From Ostreococcus lucimarinus (lineage: Eukaryota): a DNA stretch of 64,000 nt. The stretch's first letter is position 1. Each line of letters begins with the position of its first letter. Below the pieces are notes generated by a model. The model saw nothing but the letters and a program-made list of their open reading frames with translations. It made no database searches and had not been told where the DNA came from. Positions 3,401-16,158 of this stretch are shown piece by piece. The DNA lies in assembly GCA_000092065.1 (NCBI GenBank), contig CP000585.1. One strand, 5' to 3'. Position numbers and translations under genes: made by a program.

Positions 3401-3828
3401 CGATTACCTCTGACGACGTCGAAGAGCAGCGCGTCGCTGTCACGACGAGTTCGGGCGATTCAAATCCGAATGTGACGACGTTAGCACACTATGTCATTAC
3501 TCAAGGAGATATCAGCGCCATTGATGCCGCTGACGGTTGGCAACAGGGTGGAAACGTAGTCGGCGTCACCGTTGCCAAGTGGGTCCCTGAAGGCTACACA
3601 TCCTGTCGCTTTGGCACGATAACCGTTCAGAGTAGAGGCGGAGACGGCTTCGGTGCGATTGGCAAGGCGTCGGTATCGCAGTCATCGCAGTGGTGGTCAG
3701 ATTCGACTGATGGCAAGAAAATAGAGTGCGTATCTCCAGCAGGAGCGCAAGGAAACGTAAATTTGGGAGTATCCATCCTCGGAAGCACTGCATCGTCTTT
3801 CATTGGTACTACGTTTACCTACATTTAG
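427..3828 (+). CDS. Large secreted/cell-surface protein with multiple IPT/TIG-like (Ig-like fold) repeats
   Basis: 1133-aa reading frame; the ATG at 427 lies inside the longer ORF 259..3828 and opens with a hydrophobic signal-like segment MRWRTSGRLWTAVVWTLATIA. At least 7 repeats follow the pattern C-[RT]-F-G-(~20 aa)-C-x-[ST]-P, e.g. CRFGEIVANK...VVCATP, CRFGTIVTS...VACSSP, CRFGTIYPV...INCVTP, CRFGTITVQ...IECVSP, as in IPT/TIG domains. Strong GC3 codon bias on this strand. Confidence 0.7.
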   Translation: MRWRTSGRLWTAVVWTLATIARGRTATAQYQTTATTLTLEHVWPDTGAVYASTVVSLYGSGYANALPPMGCRFGEIVANKDSAASTTSKVVCATPTNVFAGFVAVGLAQATGKRYVPGSDDLVVDNGQHSFEFVVPWKLSKVNPEYAYKSGGEVLRLSGTHFRPGMLCTFKDSSLTSEYRFISSALAMCETRASSEAEGTVDLNLTPTHAVGGGGASVEYQTAPIIDGPLVSTTAVGGDVVIQASSSTPLSGAIASFTASPIRIGCWFDGIWVAATLRSERELVCKAPLQSFGTPSLSVVDMYAQRMFPTNATQTGWFTSFTVSKDEVVDVVLPSVGNAMRNTVADSSTLVDFFGRNLIAGSGSVGARICQALNPVTSPVLVTNQVQSKCDFPATPSETAALSTLRYGFHAVSAGAGASASAQFLIVSPPQITSVVPGFLRAGTVATFSGQNLMDPFRQTWCGHDGIALVAHAVSSALIRCSVPYHHQLPSGSSSSAHDLTIDVLSDLSSPGAGGTTMGWLPVANDLESITPNVGATSGGTRTVLKLTGGTIPTSSYYTPTCRFGTIVTSAIHVPGGGVACSSPAYAARNVTVGIDVESTIEFQYVAQIGVSAIVPGALPQNGGSISVYLDAALSSSYSADCVFVTSGGDKLKSSLADSSGTLKCASPQTGIGFATMAIVVSAASTNNTAFIDEAAGQYFDLEVQTRTPGVEVFLPTGANWVQAEEVIHAVTSDGSLLGDNSGDDDFWCVFGKAGIYGGSIYLSAASRVSGTILKCTVPDLDTLIVSGQSGFEIVIGICSSTEVSASSCTSYAGTRVRYEKKLGVSSVLPVNGTQAGGDVAVLVDSASVKGFGANVPSCRFGTIYPVAGTSVTGTGEINCVTPAHAAGVVPVSVPPLDLGLTALTFEYISVSTSQSVLSTTYGADPYVVAYLIEPTPMITEVVPWVGWSGSVVTLLGTNFPTGSAVKCRFGSVSVDAQVVSTAVIQCGDTSPITSDDVEEQRVAVTTSSGDSNPNVTTLAHYVITQGDISAIDAADGWQQGGNVVGVTVAKWVPEGYTSCRFGTITVQSRGGDGFGAIGKASVSQSSQWWSDSTDGKKIECVSPAGAQGNVNLGVSILGSTASSFIGTTFTYI

Positions 3829-3859
3829 GACTAAAAGCTAGATTTGTAGAAAAGATCAA

Positions 3860-6475
3860 TCAATATCTTGAGTAAAATTCGTTCGAGTCACCGAAAGGCG
3901 CACGTGCATACGTTGGCGACTCGTTGCAAGGCCGCGACGATTTGTACTGCGCTCGCACTCGCGCGTTTTCCCACTTAATGACGGCGTTGTCATTGTTCAG
4001 GATGTTGTATGCTTCGCTGATCAAGTTGAAGAGCTTACTGGAGACAACAACACGAGCCTTTGCAAGTGTTGCGGATGCACATCCACGTGATGCTTTGTCC
4101 GGATGATGATTCAGTGCGAGCTGCCTGTATTTCTTCTTTAACACGTCTTTCGACGGCTTTGGACCTACGCCGAGCAGTTTGCGCCAATTTACGGGCGTCT
4201 CGGCGTTCACTCGCCCAGTGATCGTCATCAAGTACGACTCAACTTTCACACGCTCATCCTCTGATAATCCCATGATGAGAAGTGCCTCGTAAGTTTGTTG
4301 GGCGTCGGAAACCATGTCGAGTTCAGTGTAGATTGCAGCAAGTCGTGCGTGCGCTTTGGCATACTTTGGTGCAAGTGCACACGCCGCACCTGCTGAAGCC
4401 AATGCATCGACATAGCGTTCCGTGGCTTGTTCGCATGCGCAAATGTTTGATAAAAACAGCGCTTGGAGCGTGTCTGAATTTTTACACAGACCCAACGCCT
4501 CGGTGTATAGTGAAATTGCCTTGTCGTAATTCGCGTCGCCAAACGCTTCTTTTCCTCGCTCTTTCAATTCATTTATTTGACACACCTGCTCTAGAATCTG
4601 AAGCAGTGATGCCGGATTTGGTATCTGCTTCAGTACTTCATCAGGCGTCAACACTTCTTCGAAGGTCACGCAATGAGAAGCATCGCGTCCAGCATACAGG
4701 TCAAGCGCGGGAATCAATGGTTTCAAACTATCTAAACAATCGGATACATTCGCCAACTCAAAGGCGATTCTCGCCCGTACGCACAGCCCGCGAACATCTT
4801 GAATTGGAGCGTCTTTGACGAGTATCGCGGCGGCGGCAATTTCTCCGATAAATCGCAAACCTTCAGCTCTGAAAGTTTTAATCATGGTCGAATGCGGCGC
4901 GAAGACTTTAGCTTCGTCGAGGACTCGCAAGACGCTGTGTGCGTCGACACTTTCGTCGCCGTTGTCTTCAATCTGCCACAGTTGCTCTGCGCTATCGTTG
5001 ACGAGCTCTTGCGTGCGATCCACGTCATCTATCACTTGCTGCGCATCAACTTGTTGCTCCGCAGTGGACACGCCGTTACTAAGAATATCGGACGCCTCTT
5101 GACGCGCCTCGTCGAATTGACCGAGCTGTAACAAACATCTCGCCAGACGAACTTGAGCTTTGAGGTGCGCTTTGTCGATCTTCAACGCCGCACAACAGTC
5201 TTCAGCGGCCTGAAGAGGGTTACCCAGCATCATCAAAGCCGCTACTCTATTCGATAACAAGCCAACCTTGACCTTTGCAACGTCTGAAAGATACATCGAG
5301 TCCAAGGAATCCAACGCCGAAGAGTACAATCGCGCCGCGGTGTGGAAATCGTCGTCTCGAAACGCTTCGTTACCAGCCACTTTGTCTCGCTCAACGAAGG
5401 CGCGAATGAGTGTAGATTTTTGCGACAACGCGTCTTTCAAATCTGCTGAGTCTGCTGCCGGAGATAACGATATGAACTCTATGTAGCGCTCCGCTCGCTC
5501 TAACTCCTCAAGGTTCAAACAACATTTCGCAGCGCGCGAAAGCGCTCGAATGTGATTGGAGTCAACTTTCAGCACGAGCTCGCATTCTGAAAGCGATTCA
5601 CGAACGTGACCGAGCGCAAATAGAGCCGTCGCGCGATTAATTCGTAACCAAAGATGAGATGGGTCGACCAACGTTATCCCGCTCACTTCGAGCTCTGCGA
5701 TGGCGTGAGAATACAACTGTTCTGCCTCGCCGATGTCGCCGCGTTTGAACGCGGCGTCTGCGCGTTGGCGGCACTCGTCCGCACGCTTGATCGCAGCCGC
5801 CTGCATCGACGCCATTTGTAACGCTTTTGCTTCTTCTTCCCTTCGCTCGAGCTCTTCGTACACCAGCTCTTGCTGCTCTTCAAACTCTTTCTGGGCGTCT
5901 TCGAATTCAACTTTATACATTTCGTGAATCGCTCGCGCTTCCTCCAGCGCGCGTCTCGCCAACTCAACCTTCTCAAAGCTGTTCGCTAATTTCAGCTCTA
6001 AATCCACCTTCCGCAGCTCCGCTCGACGTAGCCGCACCTCCATGTCCGCGTCGACTCGCACGCGCGCGTACTCGCTCGTGCCGCTCGTCGCGTCGCTCGT
6101 CCGGTCAACGCCGTCGACGCCGCGCACGGCGACGGAGACCACCGCGCTCGCGCTCGCGTTCGCGCTCGCGCTCGCGCTCGCGCGCGGCGTCATCGCCTCG
6201 TCCTCTTCCTCGCTCGTCTCGCTCTCTTCGAGCGACGCGCGTTCCCCCCCCCCGCCTTCCGTCGCCGCCTCGTCCACGCGCCATCGCGACAGCTCGCGCT
6301 GCAGCGCGCGCAGCGATTCCCCGCGCGTCCTCGCCGCGTCCACGGCGTCGTCCGCGTCGTCCGCGCGCGCGGGCGTCATCGCGAACGATCGCGATCGCGA
6401 TCGTTCGCGATGCGCGCGCGTCGCCGTGTGCGACGCGACGCCGCCGACGTCGAATCGGTCGAAATCGACATCCAC
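3860..6475 (-). CDS. TPR-repeat co-chaperone with C-terminal DnaJ (J) domain, DNAJC7/TPR2-like
   Basis: 871-aa ORF. The C-terminus carries a J-domain signature KKKYRQLALNHHPDK...LFNLISEAYNILNND with the HPD motif. It is preceded by long TPR-like helical repeats (AIAELEV..., ARCLLQLGQFDEA..., AISLYTEAL...), and an acidic/coiled-coil N-terminal region. The true start codon is uncertain; an internal Met (MTPARADD) is possible. Confidence 0.7.
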   Translation of the reverse strand: MDVDFDRFDVGGVASHTATRAHRERSRSRSFAMTPARADDADDAVDAARTRGESLRALQRELSRWRVDEAATEGGGGERASLEESETSEEEDEAMTPRASASASANASASAVVSVAVRGVDGVDRTSDATSGTSEYARVRVDADMEVRLRRAELRKVDLELKLANSFEKVELARRALEEARAIHEMYKVEFEDAQKEFEEQQELVYEELERREEEAKALQMASMQAAAIKRADECRQRADAAFKRGDIGEAEQLYSHAIAELEVSGITLVDPSHLWLRINRATALFALGHVRESLSECELVLKVDSNHIRALSRAAKCCLNLEELERAERYIEFISLSPAADSADLKDALSQKSTLIRAFVERDKVAGNEAFRDDDFHTAARLYSSALDSLDSMYLSDVAKVKVGLLSNRVAALMMLGNPLQAAEDCCAALKIDKAHLKAQVRLARCLLQLGQFDEARQEASDILSNGVSTAEQQVDAQQVIDDVDRTQELVNDSAEQLWQIEDNGDESVDAHSVLRVLDEAKVFAPHSTMIKTFRAEGLRFIGEIAAAAILVKDAPIQDVRGLCVRARIAFELANVSDCLDSLKPLIPALDLYAGRDASHCVTFEEVLTPDEVLKQIPNPASLLQILEQVCQINELKERGKEAFGDANYDKAISLYTEALGLCKNSDTLQALFLSNICACEQATERYVDALASAGAACALAPKYAKAHARLAAIYTELDMVSDAQQTYEALLIMGLSEDERVKVESYLMTITGRVNAETPVNWRKLLGVGPKPSKDVLKKKYRQLALNHHPDKASRGCASATLAKARVVVSSKLFNLISEAYNILNNDNAVIKWENARVRAQYKSSRPCNESPTYARAPFGDSNEFYSRY

Positions 6476-6485
6476 GAAATCAAAT

Positions 6486-6557
6486 CAAACCGAACCGAAC
6501 CGAACCGAACCGAACCGAACCGAACCGAACCGAACCGAACCGAACCGAACCGAACCA
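6486..6557. repeat. (CGAAC)n pentanucleotide microsatellite, about 13 perfect copies
   Basis: The tandem array cgaaccgaaccgaacc... is read directly at 6491-6556. It lies in the intergenic spacer between the divergent DnaJ-TPR and BCCIP genes. It creates spurious NRTEP/GSVRF repeat ORFs on both strands. Confidence 0.95.
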
Positions 6558-6736
6558 CCGCTCGACCGGATGCGCGCCGGCGGCGGTGTCGCGCGGCGAG
6601 CGCGCGCGACGGAGGGCAGTTCGAGACGCCGAAGCGCGTGAAACGCGCGAACGGGCGAAGCGAACGACGAACGAATCTTCGCGCGCGCGACCGACCCGAC
6701 GACGACGCGCGACGAACGACGCCGACGAACGACCCC

Positions 6737-6889
6737 ATGGCGCCGGGAAAACGAACCACGACGAAGAGGAAGGACGACGGGAAATCGACCGAGGCGGTGC
6801 GGGACGACGACGAGTACGAACACGCGGCGTCGGACGACGATGAAGACGAAGATGAGGAGGATTTGGACGGGGACGATGGGGACGAGGAC
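6737..6889 (+). CDS. BCCIP: BCCIP/BCP1-family protein, exon 1 (acidic N-terminus)
   Basis: MAPGKRTTTKRKDDGK... is followed by an Asp/Glu-rich tract ending ...DGDEDV. A GT donor (gtgtta) sits at 6890, phase 0. Confidence 0.5.
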
Positions 6890-6992
6890 GTGTTAATGGT
6901 GCGATGGTGAACGACGCGAAGACGCGCGCGAAGGCGACGAAGGCGCGGCGCGTAAAGCTGACGACGACTGCGATTCTTGCATCGATAAACAG

Positions 6993-7730
6993 GTTGATTT
7001 TGATTTTTGTGACGTTCAAGAGGGTGATTTTCATGGCTTAAAGGCGCTTTTGAGTGGATATTGCGATGGGAACGAATACGCGTGCTCGGACTTGTGCGAC
7101 TTGCTCATTAAACAAAAAGCCGTCGGCACCGTGGTGAAGACGGAGGCAGACTCGGAGAACGTGCTCGGCGTGACTTCGGTGGTGAGCTTGGCGCGACACA
7201 AGGATGAGAAGTGCGTGAAGGATATTAAAAAGTTTCTGCTGGGCAAGGTTCCGGGTAAGAGTAAGAAGGACTTTGAAAAGGTGCTCAACGACGCCGCGAC
7301 GGGTTTGCTCATCAACGAACGCATCATCAACGTCCCACAAGATGCCGGAGAGCCACTCATCGACGGTGTGTTCGACGAAATACGTTGGGCGACAAAAGAT
7401 GAAACCACTGAAGAGGCGCGGAAGTCGTACGAATTCAAACACTACATTTTAGTGAGTACTTTATTCGAGGAAGACGGCGAAGAAGAGGCCGAACCGGCGG
7501 CGGGCAAGAAGCGAAAAAAGGGACAACCGACCAGGCAAAAAATCTTCCCGCGACTGGAAGAGGAAATCTTGCTCGAGCACTCGACGAATTCTTTCTTTTG
7601 GCGGGGTAAGCAGAACGAAGAAAACGACATCGCTGATTTCCTTCCACACCGTTGCTGCATGGTCGTCGAGGCCAGGGTGATCGACGCTTTCCGCAAAGAC
7701 GTGAAAGATTTGTTCCAAGACTTCAAATGA
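6993..7730 (+). CDS. BCCIP: BCCIP/BCP1-family protein, exon 2
   Basis: A CAG acceptor sits at 6990-6992. Exon 2 reads VDFDFCDVQEGDFHGLKALLSGYCDGNEYACSDLCDLLIKQKAVGTVVK..., matching the conserved BCCIP core (human IEFEAYS...DYDGIKKLLQQLF...LTDLLIQQNHIGSVIK). The 103-nt intron (6890-6992) removes an in-frame stop and a frameshift between the two ORF-track pieces (6410..6910 and 7050..7730). Confidence 0.6.
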   Translation, partial: VDFDFCDVQEGDFHGLKALLSGYCDGNEYACSDLCDLLIKQKAVGTVVKTEADSENVLGVTSVVSLARHKDEKCVKDIKKFLLGKVPGKSKKDFEKVLNDAATGLLINERIINVPQDAGEPLIDGVFDEIRWATKDETTEEARKSYEFKHYILVSTLFEEDGEEEAEPAAGKKRKKGQPTRQKIFPRLEEEILLEHSTNSFFWRGKQNEENDIADFLPHRCCMVVEARVIDAFRKDVKDLFQDFK

Positions 7731-7787
7731 ATGTGATGTATAATGACAAGTTCCTAGCATACGTATCGGCGTTGTTCTTCTATTTCG

Positions 7788-8867
7788 CTATCCCAATCCG
7801 AACGATTTCTTCGTTCTCTCCTCTACGCGCGCCCGCGCAGCTTCTCGGCGCTTCAACGCCTCCGCCTCCGCTTTGTCAACCTTCTTACTAATCGACGAAG
7901 CTGGACGCTTACGAGTCGCATCGGCGCCCAAACTAGCGGTGACATACCCACCTACTAGTTTAGCTTCAAAATTGCGACCCCCAGACGCTGCAATTGCCCT
8001 CGACGCCGCGGTTTGCGTCTTCGCCTTCGCCGCCTCAAAGTTTGGATGGTTTGCTCCAAAACCCAAATTAAATATACTCGTTGTCGTTGTTGGCTTCGTA
8101 GACGCTGCAGCTTTGCCCACCACTGTTGATGGTTTTGAACTCGTCGTCGTTTGATTGAACGCCTTCGCCGCCGCTATGGCTTGCTTCGCAGTCGGCATTT
8201 GCTGCCCGTGAGTTGCCGCCTGAGGAGTTGCCGCAGTCGGCACAACTTTACCTGTCGCGTAAGGTCCAAGAGCGTACTGTTCCGTCGATTTGGCCGGAGT
8301 AGTAGTTGTAGAGGGAGGTGGGGGCGCGCCTTCGGGCGCGGTTTTTGACCACACCTTCGTTCCGTTGTTGAAGTACATCTTCGTCTTTGGGTCGAAGTAA
8401 CACGACGACTTTGCGTGCCAGTAATACTTCGATCTTTCATCAAACTTCCAAGCCCCCAGGACTTGCGTGGCGCGATATTCTGCTTCTTCGCGCGCATGAA
8501 GCTCGCGCTCAATTGCAGTCTCTAGCTCTCTCTTTGCGTTCGCCTCTTGCTCCCTTGCACGCGCTGCTGGGGTGAGCGAATTGGGCATCAACGCCGCCGC
8601 TTCTGATAGTCTACCAGCCGCTGCAAGATCCGCTGCGTACGCCTCCGCCGCCTTTGCCTCGATCTCTGCCATCTCTTTTTGCAATTTATCTGATTCCTTC
8701 TTCTCATTCGCTTCTTTGTGCCTGATATCCTTCAACTTTCTTTCGACGTTCTTCTTGTGCTTTTCGCTCCGTTCGTGCATGCGCTTGGCGTTCCCGTGCG
8801 GCTGTACGAAACATTTGCACAGCGCGCACCAATCCGAGCGAGACGATGAAAAGTATTCACTCGCCAT
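7788..8867 (-). CDS. WBP4: WW domain-binding protein 4 (WBP4/FBP21)-like splicing factor: U1-type C2H2 zinc finger plus WW domain
   Basis: The N-terminus SDWCALCKCFVQPHGNAKRMHERSEKHKKNV is a matrin/U1-type zinc finger. A WW domain follows: GAWKFDERSKYYWHAKSSCYFDPKTKMYFNNGTKVWSKTAPEG. The C-terminal tail is low-complexity. Confidence 0.65.
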   Translation of the reverse strand: MASEYFSSSRSDWCALCKCFVQPHGNAKRMHERSEKHKKNVERKLKDIRHKEANEKKESDKLQKEMAEIEAKAAEAYAADLAAAGRLSEAAALMPNSLTPAARAREQEANAKRELETAIERELHAREEAEYRATQVLGAWKFDERSKYYWHAKSSCYFDPKTKMYFNNGTKVWSKTAPEGAPPPPSTTTTPAKSTEQYALGPYATGKVVPTAATPQAATHGQQMPTAKQAIAAAKAFNQTTTSSKPSTVVGKAAASTKPTTTTSIFNLGFGANHPNFEAAKAKTQTAASRAIAASGGRNFEAKLVGGYVTASLGADATRKRPASSISKKVDKAEAEALKRREAARARVEERTKKSFGLG

Positions 8868-9134
8868 GGCGACGAATCAATCTTCTTGAGCGCCCCAGCG
8901 GGCAGTGGAACCGTGCGGCGCGCGCACGACTGAGGTACTGTACAAATCGGACCACGGCTCGCCCCAGAGACGCACTCCCGGCGTGGGCGAGCGCACCCAG
9001 TGCAAAAACGCGAACTTTGATTCGTGGGGGTCGAACGATCCGTCGGATCGCTCAGGCGTTAAATCAAACCTCTTTACAGCCATATTTGCGCTCAGACGCG
9101 AGTGTTGAGTCGACGCGCGCGAGAAGTCGCCGTC

Positions 9135-9269
9135 ATGGCGAGCGTCTCTGGAGCACTTCACCGCGTTCCAAAACTGTCTCCGAGAAACCTGGCCCCCGGA
9201 TCGCGCGAGGCGTCGAAGAACGTTGCGGGGCGTCAAAGCGTTGTCGCGAACATCTTCAAGAAGAATAAG
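9135..9269 (+). CDS. Hypothetical small membrane protein, exon 1 (presequence-like N-terminus)
   Basis: MASVSGALHRVPKLSPRNLAPGSREASKNVAGRQSVVANIFKKNK is basic and hydroxylated, like an organellar transit peptide. A strong GTACGC donor sits at 9270, phase 0. Confidence 0.3.
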
Positions 9270-9560
9270 GTACGCATTATCTCGATTTGTGATCATCACG
9301 GCGATTGGAAGCGTAACAACCTTGACAACAGGAACCTGACTGGGATGCGATGGAACGCCGACCGAGAACCGTTTCGGAAGAGATAGGCCGACGCCAATTT
9401 GCTAATCGACGGGCGAACAACGGGAAAGATAGGAAAGATCTGTACACAGACAATTGGGACGGGTAAGACAACTTTGGCAGCCAGCATTCACTTGCAGCCG
9501 CGGCGCTTGTTCAATTAAATAAAACTTGGTATTAAATCTTTTTGCAGGAGTGAATACAAG

Positions 9561-9665
9561 GGCAGTTCCTTCAATATTTTGAGCCTCGTCGCTGCGCTCT
9601 TCGTGCTCGTCCCGCTCGGGTTATTAATATTCGCGTACACATCGTACGGTACACTTTGGGGGTAA
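9561..9665 (+). CDS. Hypothetical small membrane protein, exon 2 (single transmembrane helix)
   Basis: This frame has no Met of its own but encodes GSSFNILSLVAALFVLVPLGLLIFAYTSYGTLWG followed by a stop. It joins in phase to exon 1 through an AG at 9559-9560. A stronger-looking acceptor (ttttgcag at 9541-9547) would instead give a phase mismatch, so the exact junction is uncertain. Confidence 0.25.
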   Translation, partial: GSSFNILSLVAALFVLVPLGLLIFAYTSYGTLWG

Positions 9666-10786
9666 TGAGACACTGGAGTAATTACTTGTGCGAACGGATA
9701 TCAATTTTGTAATTAAATGAAAGCATGCGTGCGTAAATGGGACAGCATCGAAGCGTCCATCCACATAGATGTACTCTGCTCGAGACATTTGTCGTTCGTA
9801 TTCGACGCTTTTCTCGCCGCGACGAATGATAACATTCTACGACGCGCTGCGACTAACACACATCGTAAGCGTGCCTGAGAGTGGAATTAAATTAAATTAA
9901 ATTATTTATCGTAAGTTTCTCGCACACTTCGCGCGTGATATCGACGTATGATGTTTGTGCACCGATGATTACGTGACTCGACCGCGCGCGTGTCGAATTT
10001 CGCCCAAACTATTCGACGAATGCTCTTTTTTGTGATTTGGGATTAAATAATTAAATCAGTAGATATTTCGCATCGTCTGACATGGACGTGTTCCTTAGCG
10101 TCATGGCGTGCGATTCGCGCCAGAGTCTCTGAGTTCGTGCATGGTACTGTCTGTGTCAATCTTGACGTGCTCAGAGCGCGATTAACGCGCTTTTTGACGA
10201 TGAAGTCTTGAGCTTTGTTCGAGTTTTGCAATATTCATTTAATTGTTTATGTGACGAACCATGAAGCAAGACAGGCGTTGATTGAATCGTTTTCCAAATG
10301 TATGGTCGTCGTAAAATAAATAACTGATCAGTCACTCACTTCTGCGATGCTATTTCTTAACGTGCGCGCGTGTATCGCTGTTTTTCAATGTTGCCCGGGT
10401 GAAATAAATAGACATTCGCTTTGCAGAGCGAGCGCCGCAACGCGAAATGTTGACGCCTCAGGAGCGCGCGATTCGATATGCGAACGACTTCTGTATTTAT
10501 TTCAAGTTGATTTGAGTGTTCTCGACCGATTTCGTCGGCCGTGTCGTTTTCGTTCCGACGTGCCCCTCGAGGCCAAGGCGAAAGAAAAACTATCACGAGA
10601 GGAAGATGAAGTGCTGATCGATCGGCGACTACAGATACAGCCTCGCGCGCGACAAAAGACGCGCGAGTTGAGTGGTGAACGCGCCCTACTGTTTGGCAAG
10701 CATGGTTGCTCGCGCCGTTGACTTTTGAACTTGCATTCCTGCACACACGTCGGCTATTCGAAGCGTGAATCGTACGTAGAAAAGAT

Positions 10787-12505
10787 TTGGCGGGAAAAGA
10801 TTTAGCGGGAATGAGTGCAGCGCTGCTCAGCGGCGTGATGTTTCCTCGACGTTGCGCTGGCGTGCGATTTGATCGTAGATGTGTCGCATCAGCGCGTACT
10901 CGCGTGGCGCTTCTTCCGCTTGCGTCCGCGCACGGCGACAAATCAAATTCACCCGACAGGCGCGCAAGGATCAAGCGCATCATCAACGTGCGGCGTCCTC
11001 GCAGACAACACGCGATAACCGATTTGGTCGAGATGGAGTCAATAGAGACGGCCGAAGATATCCTTGCGACTCGTCAACCCGCTGAATTTCAGAAAAAAGC
11101 CTCCGTTGGTAGACTTGAGGAGCTGGTCGCGTTTTATGAGCTGTACGGGCATTCGACGCCGCCCGCCGGAACATCCCTCTCCAACTGGGTTAAAAAGATG
11201 CGCACGATGAAACGCCGTGGTGAGCTTGGGCAGGACGTCATACTATCATTGAATGCGCTCGAAATGGACTGGGAACCGCTGCAGAAGCGGAGATTCGCTC
11301 GATTAGAAGAATTACAAGCGTTCAAGGCGAAGGAAGGCCACGTTCAAGTTCCAGTCGGCGGCTCGCTAGAGCGGTGGGTCAGACGCATGCGCACACTCAA
11401 ACGCCAAGACAAATTGGCTGAAGACATTGTACAAGAATTAGATAAGTTGGGAGTGATTTGGGAGCCGAACGTTACCAAGAAGAATCATAGCGACGAAACG
11501 TTTGAGTCTCGCCTTGATGAACTCAAGGCGCTCGTCGCTTCAGATGGCAAGGTGAAGAGGACAAATCAGTATGAACCAGGAATGAAAACGTGGTTGTATC
11601 ATCAGCAACGGTGCTTTCGAGAGGGAAAGCTAAGTAAAGATAAGATTCAGGCGCTGAGAGACGTGGGTGTGACGCTCAAGATGACGCAGCGCGTCTCTTG
11701 GGACGCGCGACTGATGGAACTCATCGAGTTCAAGCGAATTCACGGTCACTGCAACGTCCCTGCCACATGGCGACACAATAAAGAATTAGGTTCGTGGGTG
11801 GGCACGCAGCGAAAGTACAAGCGCACCGGCAAATTATCTGATGAGCGCATCTCGGCGCTCACGTCCGTCGGCTTTGAATGGGAGCCAAAAAAGGCGCTTT
11901 CGCGCGGTGTGCGAAGCAAGGTTTCTCCGTGGACTGTATCGAGCATGTCATCCCAAAGAAAGGGTCCAAACGTGCAGATCAACTGGATAGGCGGTGAGGA
12001 TAAGAAACCACCGAGCAATGAAACGTTCACGTGGGGGCGCGCTTCGGTGAACTACGAAGAGAAGCAACAAATTGTGTTCAATGAAATCGAGAAGTGGTGG
12101 AAAGACGGTGCTTCCGAGAAGTTGAGCCCGCAAACTAGCATACGAGGGATGCGCTTAAATCATCGTTTGAAGATTGGCAAGAACGTCAACTTCAAGCCGG
12201 ATATATTGTTGGAGATTGTCTCGGTGACGGATGAACAGACGAGCACGTGGGGCCTAATTGTCGAGGTCGACGAGTTCGGTCATCGAAGAGGTAGCAAGAG
12301 CTACGTTAACGAGGAGTCGAGAATGAGCGAACTTCAAAAGGCTTTGGACGTGCCCATCAAATTCGTGCGATTTAATCCAGATCCGACCGAGGAAGATGAT
12401 CGTGAACTCGAAAACCGCATGGGAGGACTTCTTCAACACCTGAACGAAGCCGTCGCGCATCCGCCCATCCGTGATTTAGAAGTCTCTTATATCGCGTACG
12501 ATTAG
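10787..12505 (+). CDS. Protein with four tandem helicase-associated (HA, PF03457-like) repeats and a C-terminal Vsr/DUF559-like (PD-(D/E)XK-type) endonuclease domain; N-terminal presequence
   Basis: 572-aa ORF. Four ~60-aa repeats share the signature F..RL.EL..F....GH..VP....L..WV...R...K.GKL....I..L...G..WEP (e.g. RLEELVAFYELYGHSTPPAGTSLSNWVKKMRTMKRRGELGQDVILSLNALEMDWEP). The C-terminus KPDILLEIVSV...GLIVEVDEFGH...KFVRFNPD matches the DUF559/Vsr-like motif D..LAIEVDG..H...VLRF. The N-terminal 60 aa are Arg/Ser-rich, like a targeting peptide. Confidence 0.65.
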   Translation: MAGKDLAGMSAALLSGVMFPRRCAGVRFDRRCVASARTRVALLPLASAHGDKSNSPDRRARIKRIINVRRPRRQHAITDLVEMESIETAEDILATRQPAEFQKKASVGRLEELVAFYELYGHSTPPAGTSLSNWVKKMRTMKRRGELGQDVILSLNALEMDWEPLQKRRFARLEELQAFKAKEGHVQVPVGGSLERWVRRMRTLKRQDKLAEDIVQELDKLGVIWEPNVTKKNHSDETFESRLDELKALVASDGKVKRTNQYEPGMKTWLYHQQRCFREGKLSKDKIQALRDVGVTLKMTQRVSWDARLMELIEFKRIHGHCNVPATWRHNKELGSWVGTQRKYKRTGKLSDERISALTSVGFEWEPKKALSRGVRSKVSPWTVSSMSSQRKGPNVQINWIGGEDKKPPSNETFTWGRASVNYEEKQQIVFNEIEKWWKDGASEKLSPQTSIRGMRLNHRLKIGKNVNFKPDILLEIVSVTDEQTSTWGLIVEVDEFGHRRGSKSYVNEESRMSELQKALDVPIKFVRFNPDPTEEDDRELENRMGGLLQHLNEAVAHPPIRDLEVSYIAYD

Positions 12506-12670
12506 TGCGCATGTGTACTTAAGCAAGTTGTAAATGACGACAAGAAATTGTGTAATGTGTCGCGTAGAACGTCTTTTAAAGTATTACATGTGTCAGTGCT
12601 GATTTGCGATCTCGGCGACCGGTGGCAGCGTGTACAGCGAGCGTGTTTTGTTCGGAGTCCTCTCGGTAAC

Positions 12671-13534
12671 TTAATCAAGGCAAGCGGCGGCGATAAAGAG
12701 CGACAAAATGCCAAACTCTGAGACAATGGTTGATGGAGAAGAGATCCCGGCGAAAGGAACGATGTCTACGCGTAGCCACCCCTGCACGGCGCCGCCGACG
12801 ACGGAGCCGACGACGAGGGCGCCAAACGCCAAAGCCGCGGCGCGTCCTATGCTCACGCGCTTCTGGTTCATGAACCACACCGTGGCGCCGAGCGCGGCGG
12901 CTATTTCAAGCCCGGTCGGGTTCTCTACGCCTTCCGGCTGCGCGAAACCTTGCAACAACGTCACGAGCGCGAGAGCGCCAAAGAGTGCGCCCGCTCGAGT
13001 CGTCGTCTCTCGCGACGGCGCCGCGAACCGCGGTCCCGCGGGAAGAGACTTCCCAGCCTCGCGCGCCCACGGCGGTAACGACGCCTTGATCTTATCAACC
13101 GCCGGCACCACATCGGCGTATTTCACTTCGTTCTTCACGCTCTCTCCCTTCGTTCGTCGGTTGAAAGACTTCATGAGCAGCACGTCGTACGCCGCCTCGA
13201 CTTCGCCTCGCTTGATTTCGTCTTCCGCGTATTTTTCGAGCATGTCCTTGTGCGCGCGCACGAGTTCATCGCTCGACGCGTCGGGTCGTAATCCGAGCAC
13301 CGCGTTCGCGCGCTGCGCGTCCATCCCCACCGACGGGTTCGGGTTCTCGTTCGACGCTCGCACCGCGATCGTCGACGCGCGTCGCGCGCGATTGCCGCGA
13401 TGGCGTTCGACGCGGTGCGCTTTGGTCGCGTCTCCGGCGTCGCGGCGGCACCGCGCGTGGCGATTGACGCGCGAGGACGACGACGACGACGACGACGTCG
13501 CCGCGCACGTCATCGCGCGCGACATCACGAGCAT
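12671..13534 (-). CDS. CPP1: J-like domain membrane protein, CPP1/CDF1-like (chaperone-like protein of POR1)
   Basis: 288-aa model from the Met at 13534 (MLVMSRAMTCAATSSSSS, transit-peptide-like). The J-like helix NAVLGLRPDASSDELVRAHKDMLEKYAEDEIKRGEVEAAYDVLL lacks HPD. Three predicted C-terminal transmembrane segments follow (ALFGALALVTLL, AAALGATVWFM, AFGALVVGSVVGGA). Confidence 0.55.
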   Translation of the reverse strand: MLVMSRAMTCAATSSSSSSSSRVNRHARCRRDAGDATKAHRVERHRGNRARRASTIAVRASNENPNPSVGMDAQRANAVLGLRPDASSDELVRAHKDMLEKYAEDEIKRGEVEAAYDVLLMKSFNRRTKGESVKNEVKYADVVPAVDKIKASLPPWAREAGKSLPAGPRFAAPSRETTTRAGALFGALALVTLLQGFAQPEGVENPTGLEIAAALGATVWFMNQKRVSIGRAAALAFGALVVGSVVGGAVQGWLRVDIVPFAGISSPSTIVSEFGILSLFIAAACLD

Positions 13535-13861
13535 GGTCACGGCGCGAACGTCGCGCGTCGCGATGCGCCGCGCGCGCCATCGCGATCGCCCGATCCTCGG
13601 CGCGAGTCCGATTTCGCGCGATTTCGCCGGTCGCGACTCGCGCGCGCGTCGGTTGGAAAATATCGCCGGCGTATCGCCCGTCGAGAAGAAGAGACGAGAC
13701 GCGACGGCGGACCGGCGGTCGGCGGTGCGGTCGGTCGGCGCCCCAGTCGACGACGACGACGACGACCGATGGCGCGCGCGCGGCGTGGGTGAGCCGAACG
13801 ACGAGACGAGACGACGCGACGACGAGACGACCTCGGGGCGGACGAGGCGACTCGTGCGACC

Positions 13862-15445
13862 ATGGCGTCGAGACCGGCGATGGAGAAGCTCATCAAGCGA
13901 TGCTGCGACGCGAGCGCACCGAGCGTGGACGCGGTGGCGCTGAAAACGCTGAAGAGAACGGTGAGGAATAATGATGACGGTCTGCGGTGCGCGCACGAGA
14001 TACTGATGAAGACGATGCAATCGTCCAGGGCGAGCGCGGCGACGCGAGCGCGAGCGGTGACGACGACGAGCGAACTCTTCGAGCGTTCGCGACTGTTTCG
14101 AGAGCTCACGCTCGATCGATTGGAGGTGCTGATGAAATACACGATAGGGACGGATGATGATATTCCACTTCCCGACGTTCCCAAGGGCGAGGGCGATCGA
14201 TTGCGACAACACGCGATCGACGTTTTAGAGGCGTGGGAGGCAAAATTTAAGACGCAATACAAGCAGCTCACGTTGGCTCGCAAATTCGTCACCGAGCGCC
14301 TCGGTGATGACGCGCCGGAGGCGCGCGCGGAGCGCGCGCAGCGACTCACCGCTGAGAAAGAGCGCGAAGTGCAGTCGAAGCTTCAAAATCGATGGCTGGC
14401 GATAAAAACAGAGCTGCCCGCGTTGCTGGATGAAATCGACGACGCACGAAACGCCGCTTGCGAGTGCTTTCGTTTGCTCTTCGGTGATCGATTCGTGACG
14501 GAATTCAACGACGAATCATCGTTTGCGTCTAAAGATCGAAGTGCCTCGACGAGTACAACGGTCAATGACACGATACAATCGATGCGGGAAGACGAATGCG
14601 AAGACGACTGGGAAGACGTCGTCGACGGCGCCGTCAAGGATTGGCGGTTCGCGCAAGGTACTGACGAGCATACCACCGCGTCTTCATCCGTGACGAGCAT
14701 TGAGTTGAGAGAGACGAGTGAAAACGCACCAATCATAGAGCAACTCCGCGGTCTGTATCGCTCCACCAAGGCTCGGTATCTTCCGCGTCTCACAGAGACG
14801 CTTCAAATTTTGGGTCGAATTCAACCCGAGAACAAAGACGACGATGGAAACGTCGTGATCACTCAGACTGAGCGTTCGAGAGTGGTGAACGCCGTGAGCG
14901 AATTTAAGCAGACCTTTTCTGCGTTCGTGGAGCGATGCGAGGCGCTGAGATTGATTAAGCGTCGTCAAACCGGCGACGAGCCCGCAAACGCGAATGCGAA
15001 AGAGTCTTCGCCGACCGCCGCTGATCCGCCCCACGCGGTCGAAGAAGACGAGGATGACATAGAGTCACGTCGTGGAGCATCCAGTCGTGCCGTCGAGGCA
15101 CTTCTTGAGCGCGCGGCGAAGCGTCGGAAACGCGGGTCGAATGATGCGCGTCGCGCCAAGGAAGAAGCCGCGAAACGAGACGTTGACCGCGACGGCGAGC
15201 GACGGTCTCAGAAGATGCTGGCGAGCGAAATCAAGGCGCACAACGACGAAGTGCTCGCTGAGGCGGGATTAGACTTTTTCGAACTCGAACGAAGGCGTCA
15301 AAACGCCGCGTCTGAGACTTTGGCGAGCGATTTGATGGAGGAAGAAATTGAACGCCACAACGAGTTGACGGCGCGAGGAGCGACGCCGCGACAACGCATC
15401 GAGCGCAGCTTGAAAGAACTCAAGAGAGGAGGTAGGAATAGATAG
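13862..15445 (+). CDS. UVSSA: UV-stimulated scaffold protein A (UVSSA) homologue (transcription-coupled NER)
   Basis: The N-terminal VHS-like region HEILMKTMQS...SELFERSRLFRELTLDRLEVLMKYTIGTDDDIPLP...RLRQHAIDVLEAWEAKFKTQYKQLTLARKFV and the following ECFRLLF align by eye with human UVSSA ([34 protein letters not shown]...[31 protein letters not shown]...SCFRLLVPF). The C-terminal half is acidic/coiled-coil. Confidence 0.7.
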   Translation: MASRPAMEKLIKRCCDASAPSVDAVALKTLKRTVRNNDDGLRCAHEILMKTMQSSRASAATRARAVTTTSELFERSRLFRELTLDRLEVLMKYTIGTDDDIPLPDVPKGEGDRLRQHAIDVLEAWEAKFKTQYKQLTLARKFVTERLGDDAPEARAERAQRLTAEKEREVQSKLQNRWLAIKTELPALLDEIDDARNAACECFRLLFGDRFVTEFNDESSFASKDRSASTSTTVNDTIQSMREDECEDDWEDVVDGAVKDWRFAQGTDEHTTASSSVTSIELRETSENAPIIEQLRGLYRSTKARYLPRLTETLQILGRIQPENKDDDGNVVITQTERSRVVNAVSEFKQTFSAFVERCEALRLIKRRQTGDEPANANAKESSPTAADPPHAVEEDEDDIESRRGASSRAVEALLERAAKRRKRGSNDARRAKEEAAKRDVDRDGERRSQKMLASEIKAHNDEVLAEAGLDFFELERRRQNAASETLASDLMEEEIERHNELTARGATPRQRIERSLKELKRGGRNR

Positions 15446-15510
15446 AAAGCAACCCTACGCAGACCATAGATAGACTAAACGTCAATAGTGCTACAACGAC
15501 TAGCTAATCA

Positions 15511-16158
15511 CTAATTTTCCTTTGCCTTGCCGAGCTTTTTCCTTCGTTGGGCGAACATGTACCGATAGAGCGTGTAAAACAGGAACGGGTACGCCACCAA
15601 GAGCGCGTTCAGGAACGTGACGTAATCGAACGCAAAGTTGTATGCATTTGGCATCGTTACCGCGTACATTTTAGTCTTCCGCGCGTGCGCTCGCGCGTCG
15701 TACATGAGTTTCATCTCCGCCGCCGCTCCGAGCGGGTACAGCGGCACGAACACCGTGTACCGCGACCACGTCAACCACTTGGGCGAACGTCCGATCAAAC
15801 CGCCGACGTAGGACGGATATCGCACCACTTCCGTCAGCGCCCACGCGAACACCAGCGCCGTCGCCGCGACGCTCGCGTGTGACGTCTTCACCGCGTCCAG
15901 CGCGCACTTCAGGCAGTGCGTGCGTCCGCTCCACTGCGCGAGCGCCGCCGCCGCGGGCGTCGGCGTCAATCCCGCGACCGCGTGCGCGATTTCCGCGAAC
16001 GAGGCGAGTTGAAACACCATCAGCGTCGATCGGCACGCGTCGTACGCCCCCGTGGCGTCGTCCAACGACGCCCGGGACGCCTTCGCGAGCACCGTCAACC
16101 ACCCGCACGCCTGCGCGACGTTGTACAGCACGAGGTATCGCCGCGCGAGCGCGCCCAT
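15511..16158 (-). CDS. HACD: Very-long-chain (3R)-3-hydroxyacyl-CoA dehydratase (PTPLA/HACD/PAS2 family)
   Basis: The 215-aa multi-pass membrane protein begins YLVLYNVAQACGWLTVL.... It carries conserved PTPLA motifs (SFAEIAHA, WALTEVVRYPSY, YTVFVPLYPLG). Confidence 0.75.
   Translation of the reverse strand: MGALARRYLVLYNVAQACGWLTVLAKASRASLDDATGAYDACRSTLMVFQLASFAEIAHAVAGLTPTPAAAALAQWSGRTHCLKCALDAVKTSHASVAATALVFAWALTEVVRYPSYVGGLIGRSPKWLTWSRYTVFVPLYPLGAAAEMKLMYDARAHARKTKMYAVTMPNAYNFAFDYVTFLNALLVAYPFLFYTLYRYMFAQRRKKLGKAKEN

What the first reader, a model, noticed from the sequence alone, without database searches (positions are those of the whole stretch)
10787..12505. Presequence-bearing protein combining four helicase-associated (HA) repeats with a Vsr/DUF559-like endonuclease fold
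Four tandem ~60-aa HA-type repeats (F..RL.EL..F....GH..VP....L..WV...R...KRGKL....I..L...G..WEP) are followed by a C-terminal segment DILLEIVSV...GLIVEVDEFGH...KFVRFNPD. That segment has the order and spacing of the DUF559 / very-short-patch-repair PD-(D/E)XK nuclease signature. The N-terminal 60 residues look like an organellar targeting peptide. HA repeats are nucleic-acid-binding modules normally appended to helicases. Pairing them with a stand-alone restriction-endonuclease-like domain, apparently without a helicase core, is not an architecture I recognise as characterised. It suggests a sequence-directed organellar or nuclear DNA nicking or repair factor. Of the genes in this window, this is the one I would call a new system.
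Basis: partly seen in the sequence, partly recalled or inferred. Interest (0 to 1): 0.8.

Follow-up and report, generated by a model that had tools for sequence, protein, structure and literature searches.

The report
Algal HA-repeat protein with Vsr-like nuclease
A conserved nuclear gene of the tiny marine alga Ostreococcus joins four DNA-binding "HA" repeats to a divergent Vsr/DUF559-type endonuclease domain whose closest relatives are in giant viruses; this is an uncharacterised but recognisable kind of modular nuclease, not a new system.

Summary
The ORF is real (window 10787-12505, + strand). Its likely start is the ATG at 10811, giving 564 aa, which matches gene models from Ostreococcus. 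Pfam finds four HA repeats (PF03457, E 4.5e-52) and no helicase core.

The nuclease core is common in giant-virus contigs, where it is fused to zinc-finger arrays. The HA fusion occurs only in close relatives of this alga. There it is single-copy with conserved gene neighbours, so it is a host gene and not a mobile element.

The N-terminus has the composition of a transit peptide, but targeting could not be tested. Substrate (DNA or RNA) and role are inferred.

"New system" overstates it; this is a new variant of a known kind.

The parts
10811..12505 (+). Complete intron-less coding sequence (564 aa plus stop) of the HA-repeat / Vsr-like nuclease protein. The TTG at 10787 is only the mechanical ORF start.
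   Evidence: in-frame stop upstream; first ATG at 10811. (564-aa models P0002 and P0003, 99% and 96% identical).
10811..10927 (+). Variable N-terminal extension that resembles a presequence, about 39 aa, ending ...LPLAS|AHGDK. It is rich in R/S/T/A and has one acidic residue.
   Evidence: 21-33% identity among Ostreococcus-type orthologues, basic and hydroxylated composition. Targeting was not tested.
10928..11104 (+). Conserved basic segment (DRRxxIKRxxxxRxPRRQxAI) followed by an acidic spacer, upstream of HA1. It is part of the mature protein and could equally be an NLS-like cluster.
   Evidence: Alignment A1.
11105..11278 (+). HA repeat 1
11291..11467 (+). HA repeat 2
11501..11677 (+). HA repeat 3, degenerate (lacks the GH..VP motif)
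   Evidence: E 5e-4 against HA4.
11699..11887 (+). HA repeat 4, the most conserved repeat (GHCNVPATWRHNxxLGxWVxxQR invariant). It abuts the nuclease module.
   Evidence: 58-65% identity in the distant Micromonas-like group, against 14-45% for HA1-3.
11888..12046 (+). Linker with invariant SPW, W(I/M)G and WG(R/K)xS motifs. The model has low confidence here and the role is unknown.
   Evidence: invariant columns; pLDDT below 50 for residues 5-54 of the model.
12047..12502 (+). Divergent Vsr/DUF559-like PD-(D/E)XK nuclease domain. Order of elements: helix 1 (YEEKQQIVFNEIEKWW), strand 1 (IRGMRL), strand 2 (ILLEIVSV, preceded by P-D472), strand 3 (TSTWGLIVEV), then D495-E496-F-G-H499, helix 2 (R512), strand 4 (IKFVRF, followed by N530-P-D), helix 3, strand 5.
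12200..12283 (+). Putative active-site codons: D472 (12200-12202), E493 (12263-12265), D495 (12269-12271), E496 (12272-12274), H499 (12281-12283), numbered on the 572-codon ORF. R512 (12320), R528 (12368) and N530 (12374) lie downstream.
   Evidence: E, D, H, R, R and N are invariant in 36 sequences, including the distant viral-type relatives. P-D472 and E496 are conserved in at least 90%. D472 aligns with the RPD motif of Vsr, whose Asp is catalytic D51 (PMC11879112).

Best explanation
This is a vertically inherited nuclear gene of Ostreococcus and its relatives (Mamiellales-type picoalgae). It encodes a modular nucleic-acid-targeted endonuclease.

Four three-helix HA modules are the binding array. 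HA is a DNA-binding fold according to the only solved example, PDB 2KTA. HA4 is the most constrained repeat and sits next to the catalytic module.

The C-terminal 150 aa are a divergent member of the Vsr/DUF559 branch of the PD-(D/E)XK nucleases. They carry a full set of conserved catalytic-type residues: a Glu in helix 1, P-D472 before strand 2, E493-x-D495-E496 at the end of strand 3, then H499, R512 and R528-x-N530.

The inferred mechanism is that the HA array docks the protein on DNA and the Vsr-like domain makes a metal-dependent cut. By analogy with monomeric Vsr this may well be a single-strand nick, serving genome maintenance.

The variable, basic, acid-poor N-terminus suggests import into an organelle (plastid or mitochondrion). 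That would make the organellar genome the likely substrate.

Shown: the architecture, the fold class, residue conservation, host-gene status, and kinship with giant-virus nucleases.
Inferred: catalytic activity, DNA rather than RNA as substrate, nicking, and localisation.
For: Architecture: HA x4. The HA region matches PDB 2KTA, the NMR structure of an HA domain. That structure was reported as indicating DNA binding (Mills 2013, as cited in PMC12191111). There is no helicase domain.

Homology bridge: the ORF in locus L058 scores 29.7 bits on Pfam DUF559 (cut-off 20.6). It scores 40.3 bits on this family's HMM. It is 39% identical to the window's nuclease core over 57 aa (E 3e-9). hhalign places YcjD and Vsr in the expected motif register.

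Likely active: E, D, H, R, R and N are invariant and P-D is near-invariant across 36 sequences down to 24% identity.

Host gene: gene order (BCCIP, TPR-DnaJ, this gene, CPP1-like, UVSSA_N, P-type ATPase) is conserved between the window, a 67%-identical orthologue, and a 44%-GC relative whose nuclease domain is about 41% identical. The Micromonas-like orthologues share a different conserved neighbour, GCFC. There is one copy in the window. An MMETSP transcript exists for one orthologue cluster.

Presequence.
Against: There is no direct HMM hit to DUF559, Vsr or any nuclease family.

hhalign probabilities against single DUF559 and Vsr sequences are only 4.6%.

No biochemical data exist for any member of the family.

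Targeting rests on composition only. The conserved basic cluster before HA1 could be a nuclear localisation signal.

Vsr-like domains can be catalytically silent RNA binders, as argued for FASTKD4 (PMC11879112).

The neighbouring genes give no functional clue.
Confidence: 0.55

Rival explanations
1. It is an organellar RNA-processing or RNA-stabilising factor built like RAP-domain proteins (FASTK family, algal OPR-RAP). These combine a presequence, an array of helical repeats that reads RNA, and a C-terminal Vsr-like domain that cuts RNA or merely binds it.
Against: There is no hit to Pfam RAP, even at E<=10. The closest sequence relatives are giant-virus proteins fused to zinc-finger arrays (EsV-1-7 motifs, C2H2, treble-clef and a PBZ domain), a typically DNA-directed pairing. 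The bridging sequence leads to DUF559, not RAP. The one solved HA domain was interpreted as DNA-binding. RAP hits score lower than DUF559, Vsr and I-Bth0305I.
Confidence: 0.2
2. It is a domesticated giant-virus homing-type endonuclease that acts in the nucleus or cytoplasm. Its role might be to cut invading prasinovirus DNA or to act in nuclear repair or recombination. The N-terminal extension would then not be a transit peptide.
For: The nuclease core is abundant on giant-virus contigs, sometimes with two copies within 10 kb. An HMM built only from the algal sequences finds viral ORFs at E as low as 7e-13, with Z set to 1e6. A conserved basic cluster before HA1 could be an NLS. Vsr-like homing endonucleases are reported in large eukaryotic DNA viruses (PMC12768974).
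Against: There is no sign of mobility: the gene is single-copy, with deeply conserved synteny and strong conservation of all domains. No PADLOC defence model matches. The direction of any transfer was not tested. The extreme N-terminus is variable and poor in acidic residues, as in transit peptides.
Confidence: 0.15
3. The C-terminal domain is a catalytically inert nucleic-acid-binding or protein-interaction module, and the protein is a structural or regulatory DNA- or RNA-binding factor.
For: Inactive PD-(D/E)XK and Vsr-like domains are known (FASTKD4). The canonical Lys of the (D/E)xK motif is absent, because the motif here is E-V-D.
Against: Loss of the Lys is normal for the Vsr/DUF559 branch. 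The acidic, His and Arg positions are invariant or nearly so from algae to giant viruses at 24-40% identity, a pattern expected of an active site.
Confidence: 0.1

Closest known systems
DUF559 (Pfam PF04480) endonuclease-like proteins, e.g. E. coli YcjD and N. gonorrhoeae NGO0050 (PDB 3HRL)
   Different: The window protein itself gets no Pfam DUF559 hit. It has 'VDEFGH' where DUF559 has 'LDGGQH', a longer hairpin between strands 2 and 3, and an extra C-terminal helix and strand. It is a eukaryotic nuclear gene fused to HA repeats.
Vsr very-short-patch-repair endonuclease (PF03852; PDB 1CW0)
   Different: No HMM hit. Strand 3 reads E-V-D-E rather than Vsr's F-T-H-G. There is no Dcm-type partner or T:G mismatch context, so it should not be filed as Vsr.
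I-Bth0305I / EDxHD homing endonucleases (PDB 3R3P)
   Different: The window gene is not in an intron or intein. It is single-copy and syntenic across genera. Its DNA-binding module is an HA array.
RAP-domain proteins (FASTK family, OPR-RAP; e.g. FASTKD4, PDB 9GEK)
   Different: No RAP HMM hit. The repeats are HA, not OPR or FAST. The catalytic-type residues are fully conserved here, whereas FASTKD4 appears to be non-catalytic.
Giant-virus zinc-finger / EsV-1-7-repeat proteins with the same C-terminal domain (metagenomic; e.g. BFVD A0A1C9C5F7 of Heterosigma akashiwo virus 01, and 'Endonuclease' entries of Pithovirus LCPAC)
   Same: These are the nearest sequence and structure relatives of the nuclease core, sharing RPD, VEVDExxH, RM, FIR(F/Y)NPD and YLFY motifs.
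   Different: Their N-terminal modules are Cys-rich zinc-binding repeats, not HA. They are multi-copy in viral genomes. They lack the algal SPW / WIGG / WGxxS linker motifs.
Bacterial-type DUF4379 x2 + DUF559 + HA x7 protein (P0057)
   Same: HA repeats combined with a DUF559-type nuclease and no helicase core. The pairing of the two kinds of module is therefore not unique.
   Different: The order is reversed, with the nuclease N-terminal. The nuclease is a canonical DUF559 recognised by Pfam. There are seven HA repeats plus treble-clef zinc fingers, and no presequence.

Membership tests
HA, helicase-associated domain (PF03457) | Pfam HMM score above the gathering threshold | tested here: met
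   E 4.5e-52, 174.6 bits against 28.4, in four stretches. The region also matches the HA NMR structure 2KTA at E 4.9e-4.
HA, helicase-associated domain (PF03457) | Association with a superfamily-2 helicase core (the usual context) | tested here: not met
   No DEAD, Helicase_C or ResIII hit in the 572 aa. Many HA-only proteins exist among the homologues.
PD-(D/E)XK nuclease superfamily | alpha-beta-beta-beta-alpha-beta core fold | tested here: met
PD-(D/E)XK nuclease superfamily | Acidic residue at strand 2 and a (D/E)-x-K motif in strand 3 | tested here: inconclusive
   P-D472 precedes strand 2, and E493-V-D495 ends strand 3. Both are conserved. The Lys is replaced by Asp, as in the Vsr/DUF559 branch.
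DUF559 (PF04480) | Pfam HMM hit | tested here: not met
   No hit for the full protein or for the isolated domain at E<=10.
DUF559 (PF04480) | Demonstrable homology (profile-level or transitive) and shared motifs D ... E-x-D-x-x-x-H ... R | tested here: met
Vsr endonuclease (PF03852) | Pfam HMM hit and the Vsr-specific strand-3 motif (F-T-H-G-C-F-W-H) | tested here: not met
   No hit. Strand 3 reads IVEVDEFGH. Only the RPD motif aligns. It has a Vsr-like fold but is not a Vsr orthologue.
RAP domain (PF08373) | Pfam HMM hit | tested here: not met
Homing endonuclease (mobile, Vsr-like / EDxHD type) | Located in an intron, intein or free-standing mobile context, with patchy or multi-copy distribution | tested here: not met
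   The gene is single-copy in the window. Gene order is collinear with orthologous loci at three levels of divergence. The viral relatives do look multi-copy.
Organelle-targeted protein (transit peptide or presequence) | N-terminal targeting peptide recognised by a trained predictor, or shown experimentally | not testable with these tools
   Only indirect evidence is available. The first ~40 aa are rich in R/S/T/A, poor in acidic residues, and 21-33% conserved against 60-90% elsewhere. A conserved '...AS|A(H/N)G(D/E)K' junction is visible.
Known anti-phage / antiviral defence nucleases (PADLOC) | Hit to a defence-system model | tested here: not met
   No family at E<=1.

The most novel reading that the evidence does not exclude
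The protein would be the founding member of a further class of organellar 'helical-repeat plus nuclease' factors, alongside PPR-SMR and OPR/FAST-RAP proteins. In this reading, a giant-virus selfish Vsr-like endonuclease core was captured by the algal nucleus, fused to an HA-repeat array, given a transit peptide, and now makes sequence-directed cuts in plastid or mitochondrial DNA (or RNA) of Mamiellales.
Probability: 0.2. Interest if true: 0.65.

Novelty: new variant of a known kind. Interest (0 to 1): 0.45.

Why it matters
The HA domain has almost no functional literature, and no HA protein without a helicase has been characterised. This one is a compact, conserved, single-copy gene in Ostreococcus, a genus that is genetically tractable in O. 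tauri. It links an HA array to a nuclease with an apparently intact active site.

The work also defines a nuclease family that no searched library covers: Pfam, NCBIfam, PHROGs and PADLOC have no model, and no PDB sequence matches. The family is common in giant viruses, where it is fused to zinc-finger arrays (EsV-1-7 repeats and other zinc fingers). It can now be tied to DUF559/Vsr.

If the protein is organellar, it would add a DNA- or RNA-cutting factor to the small toolkit known for picoalgal organelle genomes. It would also be an example of host-virus exchange of a selfish nuclease. If it is nuclear, it is a candidate repair or antiviral nuclease.

Either way, the reference annotation needs correcting: O. 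lucimarinus carries only a 146-aa partial 'predicted protein' for this gene.

Tried and rejected
- Sequence searches with the C-terminal domain found nothing usable: Pfam (E<=10), NCBIfam, PHROGs, PADLOC and PDB, both phmmer and a profile.
- The word-indexed homologue search with the C-terminal domain found one fragment only. The exhaustive HMMER search was needed instead.
- The single-sequence AlphaFold run was useless (pLDDT 39) and was replaced by the alignment-based run.
- An attempt to collect a DUF559 alignment from P0057's nuclease region failed twice: the word index gave no hits and the genome-contig scan gave none.
Occurrence of the family in prokaryotes is therefore untested.
- The afdb50 fold library was unavailable.
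- hhalign of the family profile against the single sequences YcjD and Vsr gave the right register but only 4.6% probability. It is inconclusive alone, so I used the bridging sequence L058 instead.
- I considered and rejected a split gene or gene-prediction artefact. The ORF is continuous, and 564-576-aa models recur in many assemblies.
- I considered and rejected an active mobile element, because synteny is conserved.
- Literature searches found no paper on this architecture or on the viral nuclease family.

Full report
**The observation**

The window has an open reading frame at 10787..12505 on the + strand. The listed TTG start is only mechanical. An in-frame stop lies just upstream, and the first ATG is at 10811. 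That ATG gives a 564-aa product.

The product is 99% identical to a 564-aa gene model, P0002. The 90% cluster of P0002 includes XP_001417822.1, a 146-aa 'predicted protein, partial' of Ostreococcus lucimarinus CCE9901. The window is therefore nuclear DNA of O. lucimarinus or a very close relative, and the reference annotation holds only a fragment of this gene.

Pfam finds the HA domain (PF03457) four times: E 4.5e-52, 174.6 bits against a cut-off of 28.4. It finds nothing else, and in particular no helicase core. The repeats recognise each other in a self-search, with HA4 against HA1, HA2 and HA3 at E 2e-9, 2e-8 and 5e-4. The HA region also matches PDB 2KTA, the NMR structure of an HA domain.

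**The C-terminal domain: sequence searches**

No sequence library recognises the last ~200 residues. This holds for Pfam even at E<=10, NCBIfam, PHROGs, PADLOC, and PDB sequences searched with a single sequence or a profile.

An exhaustive HMMER search of 1.84 billion representative proteins found only 34 relatives at E<=0.001. They fall into two groups:
- The close relatives carry HA repeats and are clearly orthologues.
- The distant relatives (P0109-P0133) share a core with RPD, (I/V)VEVDExxH, RM, FIR(F/Y)NPD and YLFY motifs. It sits at the C-terminus of proteins whose N-termini are EsV-1-7 cysteine motifs, DUF4379 treble-clef fingers, PBZ or C2H2 zinc fingers.

A scan of IMG/VR found at least 88 viral contigs that encode the core. 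Many are giant-virus MAGs. In 42 of the 68 ORFs extracted from them, the core follows EsV-1-7 repeats.

In a 36-sequence alignment that spans algal and viral-type members, E493, D495, H499, R512, R528 and N530 are invariant. P471, D472, E496, Y506 and M513 are conserved in at least 90% of sequences (numbering of the 572-codon ORF).

**The C-terminal domain: structure**

A single-sequence AlphaFold run failed, with pLDDT 39. With the 36-sequence alignment the model reached pLDDT 77.5 overall and above 88 for residues 57-208. The order of elements is helix, strand, strand, strand, helix, strand, helix, strand. This is the PD-(D/E)XK core.

Foldseek against the PDB gives only PD-(D/E)XK nucleases at the top, and weakly (best E 3e-3). 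Foldseek against viral models gives 28 hits at E<=0.001. The strongest of these are giant-virus proteins, some labelled Endonuclease, DUF559 or DUF2726.

**The link to DUF559**

The window protein does not pass the DUF559 or Vsr HMMs. Three results nevertheless tie the domain to that branch.

1. hhalign of the family profile against E. coli YcjD (DUF559) and Vsr aligns the expected elements. Helix 1 pairs with helix 1. K-P-D472 pairs with the 'RPD' of Vsr, whose Asp is catalytic D51. 'VEVDEFGH' pairs with 'VELDGGQH'. The probability is only 4.6%, because the templates are single sequences (Vsr active site as described in PMC11879112).
2. YcjD and the DUF559 region of P0057 pick out viral members of the family in the right region.
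3. One viral ORF, L058:4899-5204 (102 aa), passes Pfam DUF559 at 29.7 bits against a cut-off of 20.6. The same ORF scores 40.3 bits on the family HMM. It is 39% identical to the window's core over 57 residues, E 3e-9.

I conclude that the domain is a divergent member of the Vsr/DUF559 branch. It is not Vsr itself. Its strand 3 is DUF559-like (E-x-D ... H), not the F-T-H-G of Vsr.

**Host gene or mobile element**

The viral relatives look like selfish modular nucleases. They are numerous, and two contigs carry two copies within 10 kb. The algal gene does not behave that way.

- It is single-copy in the window.
- Window 3001-15987 is collinear, at 68-73% DNA identity, with the locus of a 67%-identical orthologue. 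The gene order is TPR-DnaJ, BCCIP, an OCRE protein, this gene, CPP1-like, UVSSA_N.
- Similar neighbours surround the most divergent HA-bearing orthologue: BCCIP and TPR-DnaJ upstream, and CPP1-like, UVSSA_N and a P-type ATPase downstream. That locus is a 44%-GC Tara Oceans scaffold, and the nuclease domain there is about 41% identical.
- Two 65-66%-GC orthologues lie next to a dynein heavy chain or other eukaryotic genes. They share a different conserved neighbour, GCFC.
- One orthologue cluster contains an MMETSP transcript.

Conservation by region shows constraint on the whole protein apart from the N-terminus:

| Region | Identity within the Ostreococcus-type set |
|---|---|
| Presequence-like N-terminus | 21-33% |
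| HA1-3 | 52-86% |
| HA4 | 84-90% |
| Nuclease | 61-76% |

In the distant high-GC group HA4 remains 58-65% identical, while HA1-3 fall to 14-45%.

**The N-terminus**

The first ~40 residues are rich in Arg, Ser, Thr and Ala and have few acidic residues. They vary between orthologues and end at a recurrent '...AS|A(H/N)G(D/E)K' junction. This fits a plastid or mitochondrial targeting peptide.

It is inference only, because no predictor was available. The conserved basic cluster that follows (DRRxxIKRxxxxRxPRRQ) is part of the mature protein and could act as a nuclear localisation signal.

**Most likely mechanism**

- Shown: a non-helicase protein with four HA modules and a C-terminal Vsr/DUF559-like PD-(D/E)XK domain, whose catalytic-type residues are conserved from algae to giant viruses.
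- From the literature: the one solved HA domain was interpreted as DNA-binding (Mills 2013, cited in PMC12191111). Vsr-type enzymes use the strand-2 Asp and a His for metal-dependent phosphodiester hydrolysis (PMC11879112).
- Inferred: the HA array positions the protein on DNA, and the nuclease makes a metal-dependent cut, possibly a nick. The target is probably an organelle genome.

Rivals:
- A RAP-like organellar RNA factor. The order of parts is the same, but there is no RAP signature, and the relatives are fused to DNA-type zinc fingers.
- A domesticated viral nuclease that acts in the nucleus or against viruses. There is no PADLOC hit, and nothing else bears on it directly.
- An inert binding module. 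This is unlikely given the invariant acidic, His and Arg set.

**Novelty**

Both kinds of module are known. A fusion of HA repeats with a DUF559-type nuclease and no helicase occurs elsewhere: P0057 has DUF4379 x2, DUF559 and HA x7, in the reverse order.

What is new:
- a eukaryotic, lineage-restricted, conserved host gene with this architecture;
- a nuclease sub-family with no model in Pfam, NCBIfam, PHROGs or PADLOC and no PDB sequence match, shared with giant viruses;
- a possible organellar destination.

I found no paper on it. I rate it a new variant of a known kind, of moderate interest. 'New system' is too strong a description.

Noticed in passing
window 9329-9472 and 9546-9665 (+), within the low-GC gap 8868-10810: A small, strongly conserved block in the otherwise non-coding, low-GC (0.497) stretch upstream of the gene. 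tblastx against the orthologous locus L081 gives 90-92% amino-acid identity in two segments about 73 nt apart. It looks like a two-exon mini-gene. The product ends in a transmembrane helix (...KDLYTDNWDG | SEYKGSSFNILSLVAALFVLVPLGLLIFAYTSYGTLWG*). No Pfam family matches.
   Followed up: partly
window 3001-15987: The gene order is collinear with orthologous loci from a related Ostreococcus clade, and the same kinds of gene also flank the orthologue in a 44%-GC relative: TPR-DnaJ (3860-6475, -), BCCIP (7050-7730, +), OCRE-domain protein (7788-8867, -), HA-nuclease, CPP1-like (12671-~13400, -), UVSSA_N (13862-15445, +). Two neighbours, BCCIP and UVSSA, are DNA-repair-linked genes. This is probably coincidence.
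   Followed up: partly
window 10811-12505: The gene has lower GC (0.523; nuclease part 0.487) than the window as a whole (0.596) and than the downstream neighbours. The upstream genes are similarly low (0.51-0.55), so this is a regional feature rather than a clear sign of foreign origin.
   Followed up: partly
window 10811-12505 / NCBI XP_001417822.1: The O. lucimarinus CCE9901 reference annotation appears to hold only a 146-aa partial 'predicted protein' for this 564-aa gene.
   Followed up: no
window 12671-14212 (-): The mechanical 513-aa ORF greatly overextends the real CPP1-like gene, which is 217-311 aa in the two orthologous loci examined. Long spurious antisense and overlapping ORFs are common in this GC-rich window: 12708-13943 (+), 13266-13580 (-), 13537-14349 (-).
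   Followed up: partly
L027 (1152-2306 and 5271-6302); L042 (488-2158 and 3648-5339): These giant-virus contigs carry two paralogous copies of the zinc-finger plus nuclease gene within 10 kb. This fits a proliferating selfish family in the viruses.
   Followed up: no
proteins P0016-P0020, P0035: HA-repeat proteins labelled 'Chlamydia suis' in NCBI/UniRef carry eukaryote-type domains (UBA and others) and sit on 97-414-kb contigs. They are probably mis-assigned eukaryotic sequence in those assemblies.
   Followed up: no
window 11888-12046 (linker): The motifs SPW, W(I/M)G and WG(R/K)xS are conserved in nearly all HA-bearing orthologues but absent from the viral relatives. They lie in a region the model cannot fold (pLDDT below 50), and their role is unexplained.
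   Followed up: no
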